Assembly: GCA_052168235.1 (NCBI GenBank)
Contig: JBQLZK010000062.1
Span: forward strand, 1-44,097
Reading direction: 5' to 3'
Length of the DNA: 44,097 bases
Source: Thainema sp.
Lineage (GTDB): Bacteria > Cyanobacteriota > Cyanobacteriia > Phormidesmidales > Phormidesmidaceae
Part shown: piece after piece, positions 34,149 through 38,935 of the stretch
Layout of the letters: each line of letters starts with the position of its first letter
Numbering within the stretch: the stretch's first letter is position 1
Made by a program: the position numbers and the translations under genes
The notes under the pieces: generated by a model
The model's input: the letters and a program-made list of their open reading frames with translations, nothing else
The model's database searches: none
What the model was told of the DNA's origin: nothing

Positions 34149-34619
34149 ATGGATTGTCGTCATATTCAGTTCCAATACAGTCAGTCAGTATCGGATATTC
34201 CTTTAGACCAGCTCCAAGCATTGTTTCAAACAGCGGCGTTCTGGGCCAAGCATCGCGATATTCCAGGACTTGCGATCGCAATTGAAAACAGTAATCCCGT
34301 TGTCACCGTTTGGGATCATCAGCGGCTGATCGGCTTTGCCCGAGCCACGTCTGATGGTATTTACCGGGCAACGATTTGGGACGTGGTCATTCATCCGGAC
34401 TATCAGGGCGCAGGCTTGGGCCGCAAGCTGGTGCAAACGGTGCTCAGCCATCCCAAGGTCAGCCAGGTTGAGCGTGTGTATCTGATGACGACCAACCAGC
34501 AAGAGTTCTACAAGCGCATTGGCTTTGACCTCAATGCCACCACGACACTGGTGCTGCACAATCAGCCGATGGAAGAACTGCCGACGCCCGTATCGACCGA
34601 GGTTTCGCACGGGTCATAA
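34149..34619 (+). CDS. GNAT N-acetyltransferase (Ycf52-like)
   Basis: LIGFARATSDG, ATIWDVVIHPDYQGAGLG and FYKRIGF motifs. ATG 34149. Confidence 0.9.
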   Translation: MDCRHIQFQYSQSVSDIPLDQLQALFQTAAFWAKHRDIPGLAIAIENSNPVVTVWDHQRLIGFARATSDGIYRATIWDVVIHPDYQGAGLGRKLVQTVLSHPKVSQVERVYLMTTNQQEFYKRIGFDLNATTTLVLHNQPMEELPTPVSTEVSHGS

Positions 34620-34628
34620 GCTGGAAAT

Positions 34629-34667
34629 ATCAAAGCGGGTCGTCGCGATGCGGCGACCCGCTTTGAT
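34629..34667. terminator. Hairpin between convergent genes
   Basis: ATCAAAGCGGGTCG...CGACCCGCTTTGAT. Confidence 0.65.
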
Positions 34668-34692
34668 GTTGGCGTTAAATAATGACGTGATG

Positions 34693-35226
34693 TTATTCGC
34701 CGTAAAAGTGGCCGTCGGGTAAGACAGTAGTGCGATCGCAGATTGCTAGTTCGAGAGTAACTCCCTTAGCCCGGAACAAGTTGCAGTTTTGCATCTGGGC
34801 TTGCTGTAAAACTGCGCCCTCTAAATTGGCTTCTTGCAAATCGGCTCCATTCAAATTGGCCCCGCGTAAATCGGCCCCACGTAAATCGGCCCCCCGTAAA
34901 CTGGCACCTACCAAATCCGCATCTTGCAAGTTACTGCGCTGCAAAATACAGCGAAACAGGTTAGCCTGCGCCAGTTTGGCCGCACTCAGCACTGCGCCAT
35001 ACAGATTAGCGTTGCTCATTTCAGCCCCAGACAAATCCGCCTGACTCAAGTTCGCCTGACTGAAATTGGCATAAGCCATATCTGCTCGCCGGATACAGCT
35101 CTGCGTCAAATTAATCTGGCGCAAATCGCGATCAAACAGATTGCAGTTCACAATTTCCAAATTTGAAAAATCGCGCTGCCCATCACTATAGGCTTGAATA
35201 AGCTGTTCCGCACTAATTTGGCGCAT
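34693..35226 (-). CDS. Pentapeptide repeat protein
   Basis: Y..GQRDF N-cap, tandem A(D/N)LxX repeats and C-terminal TVLPDG. ATG 35226 preferred. Confidence 0.92.
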   Translation of the reverse strand: MRQISAEQLIQAYSDGQRDFSNLEIVNCNLFDRDLRQINLTQSCIRRADMAYANFSQANLSQADLSGAEMSNANLYGAVLSAAKLAQANLFRCILQRSNLQDADLVGASLRGADLRGADLRGANLNGADLQEANLEGAVLQQAQMQNCNLFRAKGVTLELAICDRTTVLPDGHFYGE

Positions 35227-35455
35227 ATGCAACATGCAAGAAGATGCCAGGACGAAATTGCCCAACAACACACGCAACAAAAGGCGCTGGTCGCTAGGCT
35301 GAGCATATATACTCAGTACATTCAGATCCTATGGGGTAAGTTGCGTTACAAAGCGTTACTTAATGTTTTTTTCAAAATCTGAAAGGCCAAAGCGTAGGTA
35401 GTATAAGGGTTTAAGAAAACTTATACTTACATAAAGTAGCCTGAATCTCATACCG

Positions 35456-35848
35456 CTAGGGAATCTGCACGGTGAACTGCCCCGGACTGAGCACGGAAAT
35501 GACGCCGCCCCAGGTACACATACATTTGCAGTTGTTATTCAGTGCTGGGAAATTATTGATCAGGACAGTGGGGGAACCCGGTATCCAAGGAGCAGGCGTC
35601 ACCGGAATGCAGGGCATTGGCGTTAAAACACCCAATGCGGCGGCTGTGGCAGCAGCAACGGTGGGATTTGTAACTGTGGTGCACATGCCAAACGGCAAAA
35701 TATTCACGATCGGTGCATGATCCATAATCGTGGCCGCCAACGGCCCCCCATCCATCACCGGCATACCTTTGGGAATAACCATCAGGCTACTGGGAGCCAC
35801 GCCAAAACTGCACTGCAAAGTCGCACCCATCACAACTTGAATCGCCAT
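35456..35848 (-). CDS. DUF4280 PAAR-like spike-tip protein
   Basis: GATLQCSFG, NILPFGMC, PMPCIP...W.PG and CMCTWGGVI motifs. Starts 13 bp after the vgrG stop, with an AGGAG RBS. Confidence 0.92.
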   Translation of the reverse strand: MAIQVVMGATLQCSFGVAPSSLMVIPKGMPVMDGGPLAATIMDHAPIVNILPFGMCTTVTNPTVAAATAAALGVLTPMPCIPVTPAPWIPGSPTVLINNFPALNNNCKCMCTWGGVISVLSPGQFTVQIP

Positions 35849-35861
35849 TGTGCTTACTCCT

Positions 35862-37850
35862 CTAGTTAATCTTGACTAGACTGCCTTTGACGTTGGTGAT
35901 GCCGCTGGCCTGAACGGTGACAATGGCTCCTTCAAAATTGGCGGTGCCTGTTGCTTTTGCTTTAACCTGTAATCCCGTAATTTCGACACCGGAATTGCTA
36001 ATCACAATTTTGTTGCTGCCGACCTTCAGCGTGATATTGGTCGTCGCCTCAATCGTGATGTTGCCGCCATTAATATTGATGTTGTTTGACGTGCCGCTGC
36101 CGCCTGATTTGACGTTGATTTTGCCCTGGGATGTCCAGTCACAGGTTGAGCCATTGTCATCTAGCAGAAACTCATGACCGCCCTGGGTCTTAATTTGAAT
36201 CTTTTTATTCTGGTCATCCAGCTTCAGAAAGTGACCCTCTTTGGTTTTCAGCTCTGCATACTTTTCGGTGTCATTCAAGCTGAGCTGATGGCCGTAGACA
36301 GTTTGGGTATAGACGCCTTTTTTGATAGAGTCTTTATCCTCTTCTACAAAGCGGAGAATATGCCCGGTACGCGTTTTGAAGGTGCGCAGCCGCACTTTGC
36401 CGCCCACCACACTGTCTGCCACCGCTTCGGGCGTGGCATCTTTACCGTTCCAGACGCCACCGATTACGAAGGGGCGGTGGATGTCACCATGCTCAAAGGC
36501 AACCAGGACTTCATCGTTAATCTCCGGCAGACAGTCAAAGCCGCGACTGCTGCCTGCGCCCATGTTGACAACGCGCGCCCAGTTGCTCATGTGTTCTTCG
36601 GTCAGAGTGGGAAACTTAACGCGGACGCGGCCCCAACCTTTGGGATCATTATTATCAGCCACAATGCCAATCATGCAGGTTTGCCCCGGATGAAGCTGGG
36701 TCGGCGGCGATAGCGTTTGCAGCAAGTCACCACCCCGCAGTCCCCGCACGCTGAACTCGGTGATGTAGTGCCGCTCATGAAATAAATGGCGGGTTTCCGT
36801 CACGTAGTACGTGCCGCTGTACTTGCCCATATTGGCCAGTTCAACTAGCTTGCCGGGACGAATTAGAGGATTGCCTTCGCTGCGAGCATCGGCATGAACA
36901 AACTCGCCGCCAAGTTCGTTACATAACGCAGTTGCGATCGCTTTTGCTTCGGTAGATTGTGAAACGGGTCGATCCACCACGATCAGCTTGGGTGAAGTGG
37001 GTTTGCCCTGAAAGCTGCTGCTGGTGCTTCTGCCTGTTCCCGTTTCAGTCGTCGTAAAAACGGTATCGGGGCTGCTAATGACTTCTGAAATGGCTTCCTT
37101 TTTGCTGTAGTCCCAGCCGCGCACCTCGACGCTGCTCACCTGCTCGGCGCTGGTGACGCGCACCCGGAAGCTGTGCAAATCCTTCAGCCATTCCAGGGAT
37201 ACAGTGCTCCCTTTTTGTGGCTTGCGAAAGTTGAGCTTACCGTCCTGCACAAACAGTTCGTAGCCATTGCGCGCGGCGCGATCGCGCAGGAATTCCATAT
37301 TGGTTTGGTTTTCCTGAAACACATAGCCACTGGCCCCGCCAATATCGCCATAGCCGTATGGCCCACCCGTGCTGTCGATCGTCCCCGTCGCGATGCCAAC
37401 CTCTCCAGCAATTTGATTAACGATATCGGTGTCGGTCTTGTTCTGAAATGAGCGGTTGTAGCGCCCTCGATGCAGCCGATGCGAGGCATCGTAACCCCTA
37501 ATGATCAGGGGAGCCTGAGAACCACTGGTGAAGTGGGTTTCAATGGCGGTGATTTCACCCTTTAGGACATTGCCCTGATCGGCTTCATCATAGTCATCCG
37601 ACTCGGTGGCGCTGGAGATAAATCCAATTTCAATTGTTTTGCCAATTTCAAACAACGACTCGTGTTTCCAGGCTTCATCTTCGTCTCGGCCTGGAAAGTA
37701 GTCGTTCTTGATCACCAGCGTAAACATGCCAGGTAGATGCAAACTTTCCTCAACTGAAATTTGCAGGATATCCTCCAGCAGGTCGGCAGAGGCATCCTGG
37801 CCATCAATTTTCAGGATTGGCTTGGCGATATAAGACGTTGCAGTTGGCAT
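35862..37850 (-). CDS. vgrG: VgrG-related spike protein (gp27 hub + gp5 OB-fold + beta-helix), eCIS type
   Basis: Late-control-D-like region (GYDASHRLHRGR, QENQTNMEFL..RA, VEVRGWD), gp5 OB region (DPKGWGRVRVKFP, WARV, LPEINDEVLVAFEHGD..RPFVIG), T..GH...DD repeats and C-terminal VKIN. Confidence 0.92.
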   Translation of the reverse strand: MPTATSYIAKPILKIDGQDASADLLEDILQISVEESLHLPGMFTLVIKNDYFPGRDEDEAWKHESLFEIGKTIEIGFISSATESDDYDEADQGNVLKGEITAIETHFTSGSQAPLIIRGYDASHRLHRGRYNRSFQNKTDTDIVNQIAGEVGIATGTIDSTGGPYGYGDIGGASGYVFQENQTNMEFLRDRAARNGYELFVQDGKLNFRKPQKGSTVSLEWLKDLHSFRVRVTSAEQVSSVEVRGWDYSKKEAISEVISSPDTVFTTTETGTGRSTSSSFQGKPTSPKLIVVDRPVSQSTEAKAIATALCNELGGEFVHADARSEGNPLIRPGKLVELANMGKYSGTYYVTETRHLFHERHYITEFSVRGLRGGDLLQTLSPPTQLHPGQTCMIGIVADNNDPKGWGRVRVKFPTLTEEHMSNWARVVNMGAGSSRGFDCLPEINDEVLVAFEHGDIHRPFVIGGVWNGKDATPEAVADSVVGGKVRLRTFKTRTGHILRFVEEDKDSIKKGVYTQTVYGHQLSLNDTEKYAELKTKEGHFLKLDDQNKKIQIKTQGGHEFLLDDNGSTCDWTSQGKINVKSGGSGTSNNININGGNITIEATTNITLKVGSNKIVISNSGVEITGLQVKAKATGTANFEGAIVTVQASGITNVKGSLVKIN

Positions 37851-37954
37851 AAAGCAAAGACGGCAGCAACACAGTCGGTGGCTAAAAGGTGATGGGAGGT
37901 CAAAAGTCAGAAATTTTTGACCGTTGGTTGTAAGTCCTTCTGTTGGGGGATTCT

Positions 37955-38677
37955 ATGCAACCTGCTCAGTCAATACCATTCGACAAAGGTCGAATACGCA
38001 TCTGGGTTGGCCGCAGTATGGAAAAGCTATTTGTCAGGGGCACAGTATACCCAATTGAGGACTATCTGCCTCTGCCTAAAAAAAATATTGCCGATTCACC
38101 GCTACAGAATCGTTGGAAAGTTTTATTCAGACAGCATTTTGCTCAAATTGCCCCCGTTCTGGGTACAGCTGCTGTGGCAGGATTAATGCTTTTTTCTATA
38201 TGGCTGATGATGGCCTCGACTTTTGCTGACATAGACAAATGGGCGCTGCTACAGCACTACTGGGTCAGTTTACTTGGCGGCAGCTTGATTGTAGTTGCGA
38301 TCGCAAATTTAGCTGCCCGCTATCTGCGTCCCGTTGGCATGTTTCTCTACACCGTTGTTGCCTCATCGCGCCCTCTTCCCTTCGATGTTGCACAGTGGCA
38401 ATCAGCCAGCTATTGCAACGACAGTCATACTCTCAAAGACACCGCACGAGTCCAGATGGTAGACGACCTGCTGCACCAGTACGATTTTGTTGGCTCACCC
38501 TCTACGGCTGTGTTTGCACTGCTGGGACAGCCAACCGAAGTTTCCCTCTTTTCAGAATGGGACATCCTCTACTTTCTAGGCCCCGAACCCGGCTTATTCA
38601 GTACATCTCATCTCTGGCTAGGGTTTCAGCTTGATGATCAGCAGCGAGTGACCAATTGTCAGGTGGTGTCTGACTAG
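37955..38677 (+). CDS. Hypothetical membrane protein with C-terminal SmpA/BamE-like domain
   Basis: Two to three hydrophobic segments, then FD...W...R..MVDDLL...G.....V..LLG.P...Y.LG...WL..F.D...V. The domain call is by pattern only. Confidence 0.7.
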   Translation: MQPAQSIPFDKGRIRIWVGRSMEKLFVRGTVYPIEDYLPLPKKNIADSPLQNRWKVLFRQHFAQIAPVLGTAAVAGLMLFSIWLMMASTFADIDKWALLQHYWVSLLGGSLIVVAIANLAARYLRPVGMFLYTVVASSRPLPFDVAQWQSASYCNDSHTLKDTARVQMVDDLLHQYDFVGSPSTAVFALLGQPTEVSLFSEWDILYFLGPEPGLFSTSHLWLGFQLDDQQRVTNCQVVSD

Positions 38678-38689
38678 GTGAGTTGGGGG

Positions 38690-38830
38690 AGTATGGTTGA
38701 GTGCTGAGTACTGGGTTTTAAGTTTTGGGTACTGGTTACTAGGTACTAGGTACTGGTCTTTTGTAGCCTTCTACAGCCCTTTACAGTCTCTACAGCCCTT
38801 TTAACCCTCACTCCTCTCGCCTCACTCTGA
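38690..38830. repeat. Degenerate short tandem repeats (STRR-like)
   Basis: GTACTAG/GTACTGG heptamers and TACAGCCCT-type ~10-mers. The stretch CCTCACTCCTCTCGCCT also occurs near 32799-32815. Confidence 0.55.
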
Positions 38831-38935
38831 TTAAATGCTGATATCTAGATTCAACGGCTGGGAACTTCTAATGTAAAGCTGATTGCAAACCGAGAGTGTG
38901 CCGAAAAGTGCCCTCTCGGTTTGTATCTACAGTTT

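What the first reader, a model, noticed from the sequence alone, without database searches (positions are those of the whole stretch)
35456..37850. Orphan contractile-injection spike module (VgrG + DUF4280 tip) with no tube, sheath or baseplate
Seen: a full-length 662-aa VgrG followed 13 bp later by a DUF4280 PAAR-like gene, forming a two-gene unit. Only ~100 bp upstream is a divergent gene and downstream is a pentapeptide-repeat gene. No gp19 tube, sheath, LysM, gp25 or baseplate-J gene occurs in the window. The VgrG ends in the blunt ...VKIN strand with no evolved toxin domain, and it carries HIP1 sites, so it looks long-resident. Established: this VgrG type normally sits inside eCIS operons, including thylakoid-anchored CIS in filamentous cyanobacteria, and orphan vgrG/PAAR pairs are known as swappable warheads for T6SS. 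Inference: this may be an interchangeable spike for a CIS encoded elsewhere, or a stand-alone spike with another role.
Basis: partly seen in the sequence, partly recalled or inferred. Interest (0 to 1): 0.75.

Follow-up and report, generated by a model that had tools for sequence, protein, structure and literature searches.

The report
Detached spike genes of a split injection system
These two genes encode the only spike and spike tip of this cyanobacterium's single phage-tail-like injection machine, whose other parts lie at three other places in the genome, so the pair is a displaced piece of one system rather than a spare warhead.

Summary
A 662-aa VgrG-related gene (35862-37850, minus) is followed 13 bp later by a 130-aa DUF4280 gene (35456-35848, minus). 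Both sit among housekeeping genes, and no other contractile-injection (CIS) gene lies in the 44-kb contig.

The "interchangeable spike" reading does not hold. The 99.99%-complete genome has one VgrG-related gene, one DUF4280 gene, no PAAR gene, no T6SS sheath or Hcp, and one sheath gene. The rest of a single CIS lies at three other loci:
- contig C29: cap, sheath, tubes, tube initiator;
- contig C6: gp25, baseplate J, P2-I;
- contig C8: cap, AAA ATPase, two eCIS-core proteins.

In 50 of 61 relatives' loci with enough flank, the tube-initiator gene sits just upstream of VgrG. Here that junction is broken.

The pair is under strong purifying selection (dN/dS 0.03 and 0.05). It appears in RNA-library contigs of a relative about 92% identical. 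A VgrG trimer with DUF4280 models confidently (0.86, best control 0.01).

By sequence the system is closest to the Streptomyces cytoplasmic CIS, not the Anabaena thylakoid-anchored CIS. It is an ordinary component in an unusual, dispersed gene arrangement.

The parts
35862..37850 (-). vgrG-related spike gene (Cis8 equivalent), 662 aa: gp27-like hub, gp5 OB fold and a C-terminal spike region ending GSLVKIN.
   Evidence: ORF. NF033848 scores 338.9 bits against cut-off 275. PF04717 and PF05954 hit. It is the only match in the genome. Residues 93-618 align to the Streptomyces CIS spike 9gtr at 1.1e-43. dN/dS is 0.030 against the same-genus ortholog.
35849..35861 (-). 13-bp spacer between vgrG and the DUF4280 gene, with a GGAG ribosome-binding motif; suggests one transcript.
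   Evidence: Sequence read. No terminator-like site lies between the genes. Co-transcription is inferred.
35456..35848 (-). DUF4280 PAAR-like spike-tip gene (Cis10 equivalent), 130 aa.
   Evidence: PF14107 hits at 1.5e-36. It is the only match in the genome. C13, C56, C80, C109 and C111 are invariant in 34 sequences. The model with three VgrG C-termini scores 0.86 against a best control of 0.01. dN/dS is 0.048.
37851..37942 (.). Upstream intergenic region of vgrG, the presumed promoter/5' leader. It holds an inverted repeat at 37898-37922.
   Evidence: Sequence; repeat listed. The 150 bp upstream of vgrG are 83% identical in the same-genus genome. No consensus promoter was found, so function is not shown.
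34693..35280 (-). Pentapeptide-repeat gene downstream on the same strand. A neighbour, not a conserved part of the module.
   Evidence: PF00805 hits at 4.9e-54. The orthologous gene follows DUF4280 only in the same-genus genome (L017, 97% identity). One weak pentapeptide hit (31-34% identity) follows it in L022, and none of the other loci has one directly next to it. An RNA-library contig spans it together with the pair.
37943..38677 (+). Divergent 244-aa ORF with no family. It lies in an ~815-bp stretch missing from the same-genus genome. Not part of the module.
   Evidence: no Pfam or NCBIfam hit; about 900 bp of window DNA between the aligned blocks correspond to 84 bp in L017.

Best explanation
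The vgrG-related gene and the DUF4280 gene encode the sole spike and spike tip of the one contractile injection system in this cyanobacterial genome.

The system is of the Streptomyces CIS-Sc type by sequence, and its genes are dispersed over at least four loci:
- C29:60280-74851 holds a Pvc16_N cap, the sheath, three gp19 tubes, two unknown genes, a fourth gp19 tube-like protein, a 2645-aa low-complexity protein and a CIS_tube initiator.
- C62, this window, holds the spike and tip.
- C6:~66980-81497 holds gp25, baseplate J, P2-I and conserved accessory genes.
- C8:~130986-141685 holds a sensor kinase, a second Pvc16_N cap protein, an AAA+/WHD ATPase and two eCIS-core (DUF4157) proteins.

The ancestral operon ran ...tube initiator - vgrG - DUF4280 - gp25 - baseplate J... 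and was broken on both sides of the spike pair.

Inferred mechanism. Three VgrG chains form the hub and spike that seat on the tube-initiator rings and nucleate the baseplate. One DUF4280 molecule caps the blunt end by adding strands to the last 7-8 residues of each VgrG chain. Sheath contraction then drives tube and spike outward.

Shown here: gene content, copy numbers, synteny, selection and homology. Inferred: assembly in trans, co-regulation and the mode of action (cytoplasmic, released or membrane-anchored).
For: Copy number. The genome (7.54 Mb, 99.99% complete) has one VgrG_rel and one DUF4280. It has one Phage_base_V over the cut-off and no PAAR over the cut-off. It has one sheath, one gp25 and one baseplate J.

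Other loci. Pfam of the C29, C6 and C8 loci shows no spike there.

Synteny. A contiguous cluster with the order tubes...CIS_tube-VgrG-DUF4280-gp25-BpJ-P2I exists in L061. Of 61 loci with at least 2.5 kb upstream, 50 have the CIS_tube gene just upstream of VgrG. In G000, CIS_tube is instead followed by BrnT/BrnA, a Fic gene, gcvH and an amidase.

The same split elsewhere. The same three-way split occurs in the same-genus genome G001 and in G012. In G012 the pair sits mid-way in a 201-kb contig.

Selection. dN/dS is 0.030 for VgrG and 0.048 for DUF4280, at dS 0.60 and 0.47.

RNA. Three metatranscriptome runs of one study hold contigs about 92% identical that span DUF4280 and VgrG.

Complex model. 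VgrG residues 500-662 in three copies plus DUF4280 score 0.86, best of 3 controls 0.01. The tool's mark was reached by 116 of 157 solved complexes and 2 of 215 mismatched pairs. The runs agree in 100% of contacts and the partner pLDDT is at least 93. The interface is VgrG 655-662 against DUF4280 28-35, 92-99 and 124-130.

Homology. The sheath matches the Streptomyces CIS at 2.8e-109, baseplate J at 2.4e-108 and VgrG at 1.1e-43. The solved CIS-Sc baseplate is made of Cis1b/7/8/9/11/12 (passages of PMC12237407).
Against: - No particle, protein or strain-specific transcript data exist. The RNA evidence is contigs from a relative in RNA libraries, which cannot show strand, a single transcript or the absence of DNA carry-over.
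- The assembly has 205 contigs, so true distances between the loci are unknown and a second spike on unassembled DNA cannot be strictly excluded.
- No shared regulatory motif was found upstream of the four loci, and no consensus promoter upstream of vgrG.
- VgrG-PAAR is a textbook pair, so the complex model may pass by likeness to solved VgrG-PAAR structures. DUF4280 itself, however, has no sequence match in the PDB.
Confidence: 0.8

Rival explanations
1. Relic. The CIS has been broken up by rearrangement and no longer assembles; the spike pair is a leftover on its way to decay.
For: The operon is broken at two junctions. Toxin-antitoxin and Fic genes sit at the broken end on C29. No promoter or shared motif was found. 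There is no direct expression data for this strain.
Against: All core genes are intact, with no stops inside any match. dN/dS is 0.03-0.05 at dS 0.5-0.6. The same split is kept in G001 and G012, with sheath 96% and 87% identical and baseplate J 98% and 72% identical. RNA-library contigs of a relative cover the pair.
Confidence: 0.08
2. Stand-alone spike. VgrG and DUF4280 act without a sheath and tube, for example as a membrane-associated or secreted complex with another role.
For: Physical separation from all other CIS genes. The pair probably has its own transcription unit.
Against: A complete, single-copy set of matching partners exists in the genome. Of 14 relatives' genomes with a VgrG_rel over the cut-off, 13 also have the sheath; the exception is 69% complete. 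In most relatives the pair is embedded in the CIS operon. The VgrG has no extra domain.
Confidence: 0.05
3. Interchangeable or alternative warhead. The pair is an extra spike that can replace the spike of a complete CIS or T6SS encoded elsewhere.
For: Orphan vgrG-PAAR islands are known for T6SS (recalled background, not tested here). The same-genus genome G001 carries, besides the split system, a second contiguous CIS cluster with its own VgrG on C49. Cross-use is therefore conceivable in that strain.
Against: In this genome there is no other VgrG, base_V, DUF4280 or PAAR gene. There is only one sheath and no T6SS VipB or Hcp. No effector, adaptor or immunity gene lies next to the pair.
Confidence: 0.03

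Closest known systems
Streptomyces coelicolor/venezuelae cytoplasmic CIS (CIS-Sc; PDB 9GTP/9GTR/9GTS, 8BKY, 8BL4; dbeCIS subclade IId as named in PMC10066040)
   Same: It is the best solved match for three parts: the spike (9gtr, 1.1e-43, residues 93-618), the sheath over its full length (2.8e-109) and baseplate J (2.4e-108, the only PDB hit). The part list is the same: tube initiators, VgrG-like Cis8, gp25-like Cis9, Cis11, Cis12. In the passages read, CIS-Sc lacks conventional tail-fibre and tape-measure genes; no such family was detected in the ORFs scanned here.
   Different: The Streptomyces genes form one cluster; here they lie at four loci. This system has a DUF4280 tip, whereas in the passages read Cis10 is a PAAR-repeat protein present only in S. 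venezuelae. The host is a cyanobacterium. Localisation and the cell-death role are untested here, and a CisA homolog was not searched.
Anabaena sp. PCC 7120 thylakoid-anchored CIS (tCIS; all3313-all3327; PDB 7B5H/7B5I)
   Same: A cyanobacterial CIS with a VgrG-like Cis8 trimer tipped by one PAAR-like Cis10 (passages of PMC8894136).
   Different: The spike All3320 matches only residues 86-469 at 3e-25. The sheath All3325 matches only the C-terminal domain at 3.3e-48. The Anabaena cluster is contiguous. So this is a different CIS lineage, not the tCIS spike.
Orphan vgrG-PAAR islands of T6SS and Francisella IglG-type DUF4280 tips
   Same: A vgrG gene followed by a PAAR-like gene away from the main cluster. 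DUF4280 is treated as a divergent PAAR type (PAAR_H) in PMC8651086 (passages). NCBIfam IglG matches at 2.7e-17, below its cut-off.
   Different: It is not additional to a main-cluster spike, and no effector or immunity gene is linked. The T6SS VgrG models are below cut-off (60.2 against 186.35, and 72.8 against 121.8). The genome has no T6SS sheath or Hcp.

Membership tests
VgrG-related protein (NCBIfam NF033848) | Whole-protein HMM score above the curated cut-off | tested here: met
   338.9 bits against cut-off 275, residues 10-538; 338.3 bits in the genome search.
VgrG-related protein (NCBIfam NF033848) | gp27-like hub plus gp5 OB-fold domains | tested here: met
   PF05954 Phage_GPD covers residues 98-358 (32.6 bits, cut-off 30.1). 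PF04717 Phage_base_V covers 394-467 (92.3 bits, cut-off 23.8).
VgrG-related protein (NCBIfam NF033848) | C-terminal beta-helical spike that forms a trimer | tested here: inconclusive
   The alignment to the solved CIS-Sc spike runs to residue 618. Residues 500-662 in three copies modelled with pLDDT about 91. The fold itself was not inspected.
Canonical T6SS VgrG/TssI (TIGR03361, TIGR01646) | HMM score above cut-off | tested here: not met
   60.2 bits against 186.35, and 72.8 bits against 121.8.
Canonical T6SS VgrG/TssI (TIGR03361, TIGR01646) | T6SS core genes (TssC/VipB, Hcp) in the genome | tested here: not met
   No match at E<=1 for PF05943 or PF05638 in the own genome.
DUF4280 PAAR-like tip proteins (PF14107) | HMM score above the gathering cut-off over the full domain | tested here: met
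   125.8 bits against 26.3, profile positions 1-109 of 109.
DUF4280 PAAR-like tip proteins (PF14107) | Binds the blunt end of a VgrG trimer | tested here: inconclusive
   The model supports binding: score 0.86, best of 3 controls 0.01. The mark was reached by 116 of 157 solved complexes and 2 of 215 mismatched pairs. Contacts agree 100% and partner pLDDT is at least 93. This is a prediction only and may reflect likeness to solved VgrG-PAAR complexes.
PAAR motif family (PF05488) | HMM score above cut-off | tested here: not met
   The only hit in the genome lies inside this gene: E 0.18, 15.1 bits against cut-off 27.
Anabaena-type thylakoid-anchored CIS | Close relationship of spike and sheath to All3320/All3325 | tested here: not met
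   3e-25 (partial) and 3.3e-48 (C-terminal domain only), both weaker than the Streptomyces CIS matches.
Anabaena-type thylakoid-anchored CIS | Cis13 transmembrane domain, Cis12 extension, Cis19 crown | not tested
   No search with these proteins was run.
CIS-Sc-type (Streptomyces) CIS | Full-length similarity of sheath, baseplate J and spike | tested here: met
   2.8e-109, 2.4e-108 and 1.1e-43.
CIS-Sc-type (Streptomyces) CIS | Cytoplasmic particles that mediate cell death under stress; dependence on CisA | not testable with these tools
   Needs cryo-ET and genetics. A CisA homolog was not searched.
Auxiliary (swappable) vgrG-PAAR island | Additional to a spike in the main cluster | tested here: not met
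   Single VgrG_rel, base_V and DUF4280 in the genome; no spike at C29, C6 or C8.
Auxiliary (swappable) vgrG-PAAR island | Linked effector/adaptor/immunity genes | tested here: not met
   The neighbours are a pentapeptide-repeat gene, a GNAT, a dihaem cytochrome c and an ORF without family. The eCIS-core proteins lie on C8.

The most novel reading that the evidence does not exclude
A cyanobacterial clade keeps a working Streptomyces-type CIS whose genes are scattered over four unlinked loci. The spike-tip pair has become its own transcription unit and acts as the limiting nucleation step. Expression of vgrG-DUF4280 would then decide when baseplates, and hence whole particles, form, possibly under the sensor kinase encoded at the C8 locus. 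If so, operon-based CIS surveys miss such systems and undercount CIS in cyanobacteria.
Probability: 0.2. Interest if true: 0.5.

Novelty: new member of a known kind. Interest (0 to 1): 0.3.

Why it matters
The pair itself is an ordinary CIS spike and tip. What is worth knowing is the arrangement. All core parts of one phage-tail-like machine are single-copy, intact and under selection, yet spread over four loci. The same split is kept in a second genome of the same genus and in one of another genus.

This suggests that operon linkage is not needed to maintain a CIS. It also warns that cluster-based catalogues can miss or mis-score such systems, and that an "orphan" spike gene need not be a spare. 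Finally, it points to a second cyanobacterial CIS lineage, closer to the Streptomyces cytoplasmic CIS than to the Anabaena tCIS. None of the papers I retrieved in my searches described this lineage (listings and passages only).

Tried and rejected
- Promoter/terminator consensus scan of 34600-38800: 1 promoter-like site against 3.5 expected, and not upstream of vgrG. Uninformative.
- Shared regulatory motif upstream of the four loci: the shared 9-11-mers are at chance level, and blastn-short of the 210 bp upstream of vgrG found only 13-18-nt matches at E>=1.2.
- A 14-mer just upstream of vgrG is identical to the end of a repeat found at ten other places, most at contig ends. The similarity does not extend beyond it and is within chance expectation, so it was not taken as a breakpoint footprint.
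- The inverted repeat at 37898-37922 is unique to this locus apart from one unrelated palindrome on C23. Its function is unknown.
- Contig-end 55-mer overlaps link the right end of C62 through a 1263-bp contig to C100, C88 or C112, and not to C29, C6 or C8. This is suggestive only, because it assumes the overlaps are assembly-graph edges.
- Pentapeptide gene as part of the module: rejected. The orthologous gene follows DUF4280 only in L017; one weak pentapeptide hit follows it in L022.
- Earlier-findings look-ups by place, sequence and words returned nothing.
- Literature searches for split or dispersed CIS clusters in cyanobacteria gave nothing relevant in the listings.
- DNA-run shares and parts without contig cover were not used as evidence.
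- The tree could not settle how many times the pair was detached. The 14-row clade (support 99) holds three detached lineages and one attached lineage, with an unresolved inner fork (support 81).
Full report
**Observation.** The window is the whole 44,097-bp contig C62 of a 7.54-Mb, 205-contig, 99.99%-complete genome. On the minus strand, a 662-aa ORF (35862-37850) is followed after 13 bp by a 130-aa ORF (35456-35848). The spacer carries GGAG 9 nt before the second ATG.

The large protein passes NCBIfam VgrG_rel NF033848 (338.9 bits, cut-off 275). It has Phage_GPD and Phage_base_V domains and no further domain. The small protein is a full-length DUF4280 (1.5e-36).

Downstream on the same strand is a pentapeptide-repeat gene. 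Upstream, 92 bp away, is a divergent 244-aa ORF without any family. Two HIP1 sites lie in vgrG. G+C content there is like the rest of the contig.

The other 34 window ORFs I scanned are housekeeping or unknown (glpX, hemA, nadC, btpA, cobQ, fur, ferritin and others). None is a CIS family.

**Is there a CIS elsewhere, and does it have its own spike?** Family searches of the whole genome each found the core parts once:

| Part | Family | Place |
|---|---|---|
| Sheath | PF04984 | C29 |
| gp19 tube genes (four) | PF06841 | C29 |
| gp25 | PF04965 | C6 |
| Baseplate J | PF04865 | C6 |
| VgrG_rel | NF033848 | only in the window |
| DUF4280 | PF14107 | only in the window |
| Phage_base_V over cut-off | PF04717 | only in the window |
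| PAAR motif | PF05488 | none over cut-off; the one weak hit is inside the DUF4280 gene |
| T6SS VipB, Hcp | PF05943, PF05638 | no match |

Pfam scans of the loci give these gene orders:
- **C29:60280-74851 (+):** Pvc16_N, sheath, three gp19 tubes, two unknown genes, a fourth gp19 protein, a 2645-aa ORF without family, then a 164-aa CIS_tube (PF19266) protein. After it come BrnT/BrnA, an unknown gene, Fic, gcvH and an amidase.
- **C6 (-):** gp25, baseplate J, Tail_P2_I, a 457-aa protein, a WD40 protein and two large proteins.
- **C8 (-):** found through the ATPase that follows the pair in Nodosilinea-group relatives. It holds a Cache/HAMP histidine kinase, a 457-aa Pvc16_N protein, a 125-aa ORF, an AAA+/WHD ATPase and two eCIS_core (DUF4157) proteins.

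No spike gene lies at any of these loci. The genome therefore has one CIS, and the window holds its only spike and tip.

**What the ancestral arrangement was.** The protein has thousands of relatives. One search found 2703 proteins at E<=1e-10 among 7999 scored. Apart from the query's own cluster, the best 120 are 59-75% identical, and all that carry a name are from cyanobacteria.

One search kept 79 loci from species genomes. I searched them by tblastn with this genome's own CIS proteins and later added one locus from genome G012 (a row I chose because G012 looked split).
- Locus L061 carries the whole system in one run: tubes...CIS_tube, VgrG, DUF4280, gp25, baseplate J, P2-I, the 457-aa protein, WD40 and a large protein.
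- Of the 61 loci with at least 2.5 kb upstream, 50 have the CIS_tube gene directly upstream of VgrG and 11 do not.
- Of the 74 loci with at least 1 kb downstream, 37 have DUF4280 next.
- Of the 49 loci with at least 2.5 kb upstream and 5 kb downstream, 5 hold an isolated VgrG-DUF4280 pair: L014, L017, L018, L020 and L099.

In this genome the operon is thus broken exactly between CIS_tube and vgrG, and again between DUF4280 and gp25.

**Relatives.** In 25 related genomes plus this one:
- The same-genus genome G001 has the same three-way split: VgrG on C12, sheath on C178, baseplate J on C7, with sheath 96% and baseplate J 98% identical. The window's synteny is kept around the pair. G001 also has a second, contiguous CIS on C49.
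- G012 (sheath 87% identical) has the same split. Its pair lies in the middle of a 201-kb contig, and its Pvc16_N-to-CIS_tube run lies on another contig without a spike.
- G014 and G007 keep everything together.
- G006, G008 and G013 keep sheath and VgrG on one contig, with baseplate J on another.

Different contigs do not prove distance in fragmented assemblies, but the long flanks in G012 and in the window do.

In a VgrG tree the window groups, with 99% support, with G001, G012, an attached Leptothoe group and a detached Nodosilinea group. The flanks of the three detached lineages differ. The inner fork is unresolved, so the number of detachment events is open.

**Is the pair alive?**
- Against the G001 ortholog (89% nucleotide identity), dN/dS is 0.030 for VgrG (dS 0.60) and 0.048 for DUF4280.
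- Five cysteines and 31 other positions of DUF4280 are invariant in 34 sequences.
- Three metatranscriptome runs of one study hold contigs about 92% identical to the window that span the pair. One covers 35307-37886, almost exactly the two genes. Another also covers the pentapeptide gene.
- These are contigs from RNA libraries of a relative. They show neither strand nor a single transcript, and DNA carry-over is possible, so I count them as weak support.
- Of 14 genomes with a VgrG_rel over the cut-off, 13 also have the sheath; the exception is 69% complete.

**Spike-tip contact.** I modelled three copies of VgrG residues 500-662 with DUF4280, using alignments of 34 rows each.
- The score was 0.86; the best of 3 controls was 0.01.
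- The tool's mark was reached by 116 of 157 solved complexes and 2 of 215 mismatched pairs.
- The runs agree in 100% of contacts, and the partner pLDDT is at least 93.
- The last 7-8 residues of each VgrG chain (655-662, the "blunt" GSLVKIN end) touch three segments of DUF4280 (28-35, 92-99, 124-130).

VgrG-PAAR is a textbook pair, so the pass may reflect likeness to solved complexes. DUF4280 itself has no sequence match in the PDB.

**Which kind of CIS.**
- The best solved match of the spike is chain 9gtr_q (1.1e-43), a model of the Streptomyces coelicolor CIS. The Anabaena tCIS spike All3320 reaches 3e-25 over the N-terminal part only.
- The sheath matches the Streptomyces CIS sheaths over its full length (2.8e-109), but All3325 only in the C-terminal domain (3.3e-48).
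- Baseplate J matches only the Streptomyces CIS (2.4e-108).
- In the passages I read, the Anabaena cluster is contiguous (all3313-all3327), with Cis8 as spike and Cis10 as PAAR-like tip (PMC8894136).
- In the passages I read, the CIS-Sc baseplate is Cis1b/7/8/9/11/12 (PMC12237407), and PMC10066040 places the Streptomyces systems in dbeCIS subclade IId.

The system here is therefore a relative of the Streptomyces-type CIS in a cyanobacterium. Its mode of action is untested.

**Verdict.** It is not an alternative warhead, a T6SS-style island, a tCIS spike, a stand-alone spike or a decaying relic. It is the single spike module of one dispersed CIS.

In the searches I ran (listings and passages only, supplements not read) I found no description of such a dispersed cyanobacterial CIS. 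That is not proof that none exists.

Noticed in passing
G000 contig C29:66385-74322 (+) (L093:386-8323): A 2645-aa ORF lies between the fourth gp19 tube-like gene and the CIS_tube initiator. It has no Pfam hit. It is S/Q/A/P/T-rich (S 17%, Q 12%) with 66- and 87-nt tandem repeats, and only its C-terminal ~200 aa are conserved. The counterpart is 1166-1903 aa in the relatives examined. It may be a length determinant or a cargo protein; this is untested.
   Followed up: partly
G000 contig C29:74875-77232 (L011:4876-7233): A BrnT/BrnA toxin-antitoxin pair, an unknown 143-aa gene and a Fic protein sit exactly where vgrG follows the CIS_tube gene in relatives, that is, at the broken end of the operon.
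   Followed up: partly
G000 contig C8:130986-141685 (-) (L098:2987-13686): A fourth CIS locus: a Cache/HAMP histidine kinase, a second and longer Pvc16_N protein (457 aa), an AAA+/WHD ATPase and two eCIS_core (DUF4157) proteins of 737 and 673 aa. In Nodosilinea-group relatives a Cache/HAMP sensor and this ATPase follow vgrG-DUF4280 directly.
   Followed up: partly
window 37943-38901: About 815 bp holding the divergent 244-aa ORF (two hydrophobic stretches, one HIP1 site) are missing from the same-genus genome. In RNA-library contigs of a relative, 239 bases inside it are replaced by 230 other bases. This is a variable, lineage-specific insert next to vgrG.
   Followed up: partly
window 37898-37922: An inverted repeat with 10-bp arms (including G-T pairs) and a 5-nt loop lies 48-72 nt upstream of the vgrG start codon, in a stretch 83% identical in the same-genus genome. 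It could be an operator or a leader hairpin. The only other match to the relaxed pattern in this genome is an unrelated palindrome on C23.
   Followed up: partly
loci L019-L091: Among 50 relatives' loci with at least 9 kb downstream, DUF4280 next to vgrG and gp25/baseplate J downstream rarely occur together. The counts are 2 with both, 18 with DUF4280 only, 15 with gp25/BpJ only and 15 with neither. Where the tip gene lies in the loci without DUF4280 was not examined.
   Followed up: no
G001 contigs C49 and C19: The same-genus genome carries, besides the same split CIS, a second contiguous CIS cluster (sheath 61% identical, own VgrG_rel and baseplate J on C49). It also has a third, more distant sheath/VgrG-like pair on C19 with a stop inside the VgrG match. 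This genome has neither.
   Followed up: no
G000 contig ends (C32, C55, C77, C85, C103, C114, C129, C141, C197, C199): A repeated element with a common ~50-nt terminus lies about 30 nt from many contig ends. It is probably an insertion sequence that breaks the assembly.
   Followed up: no
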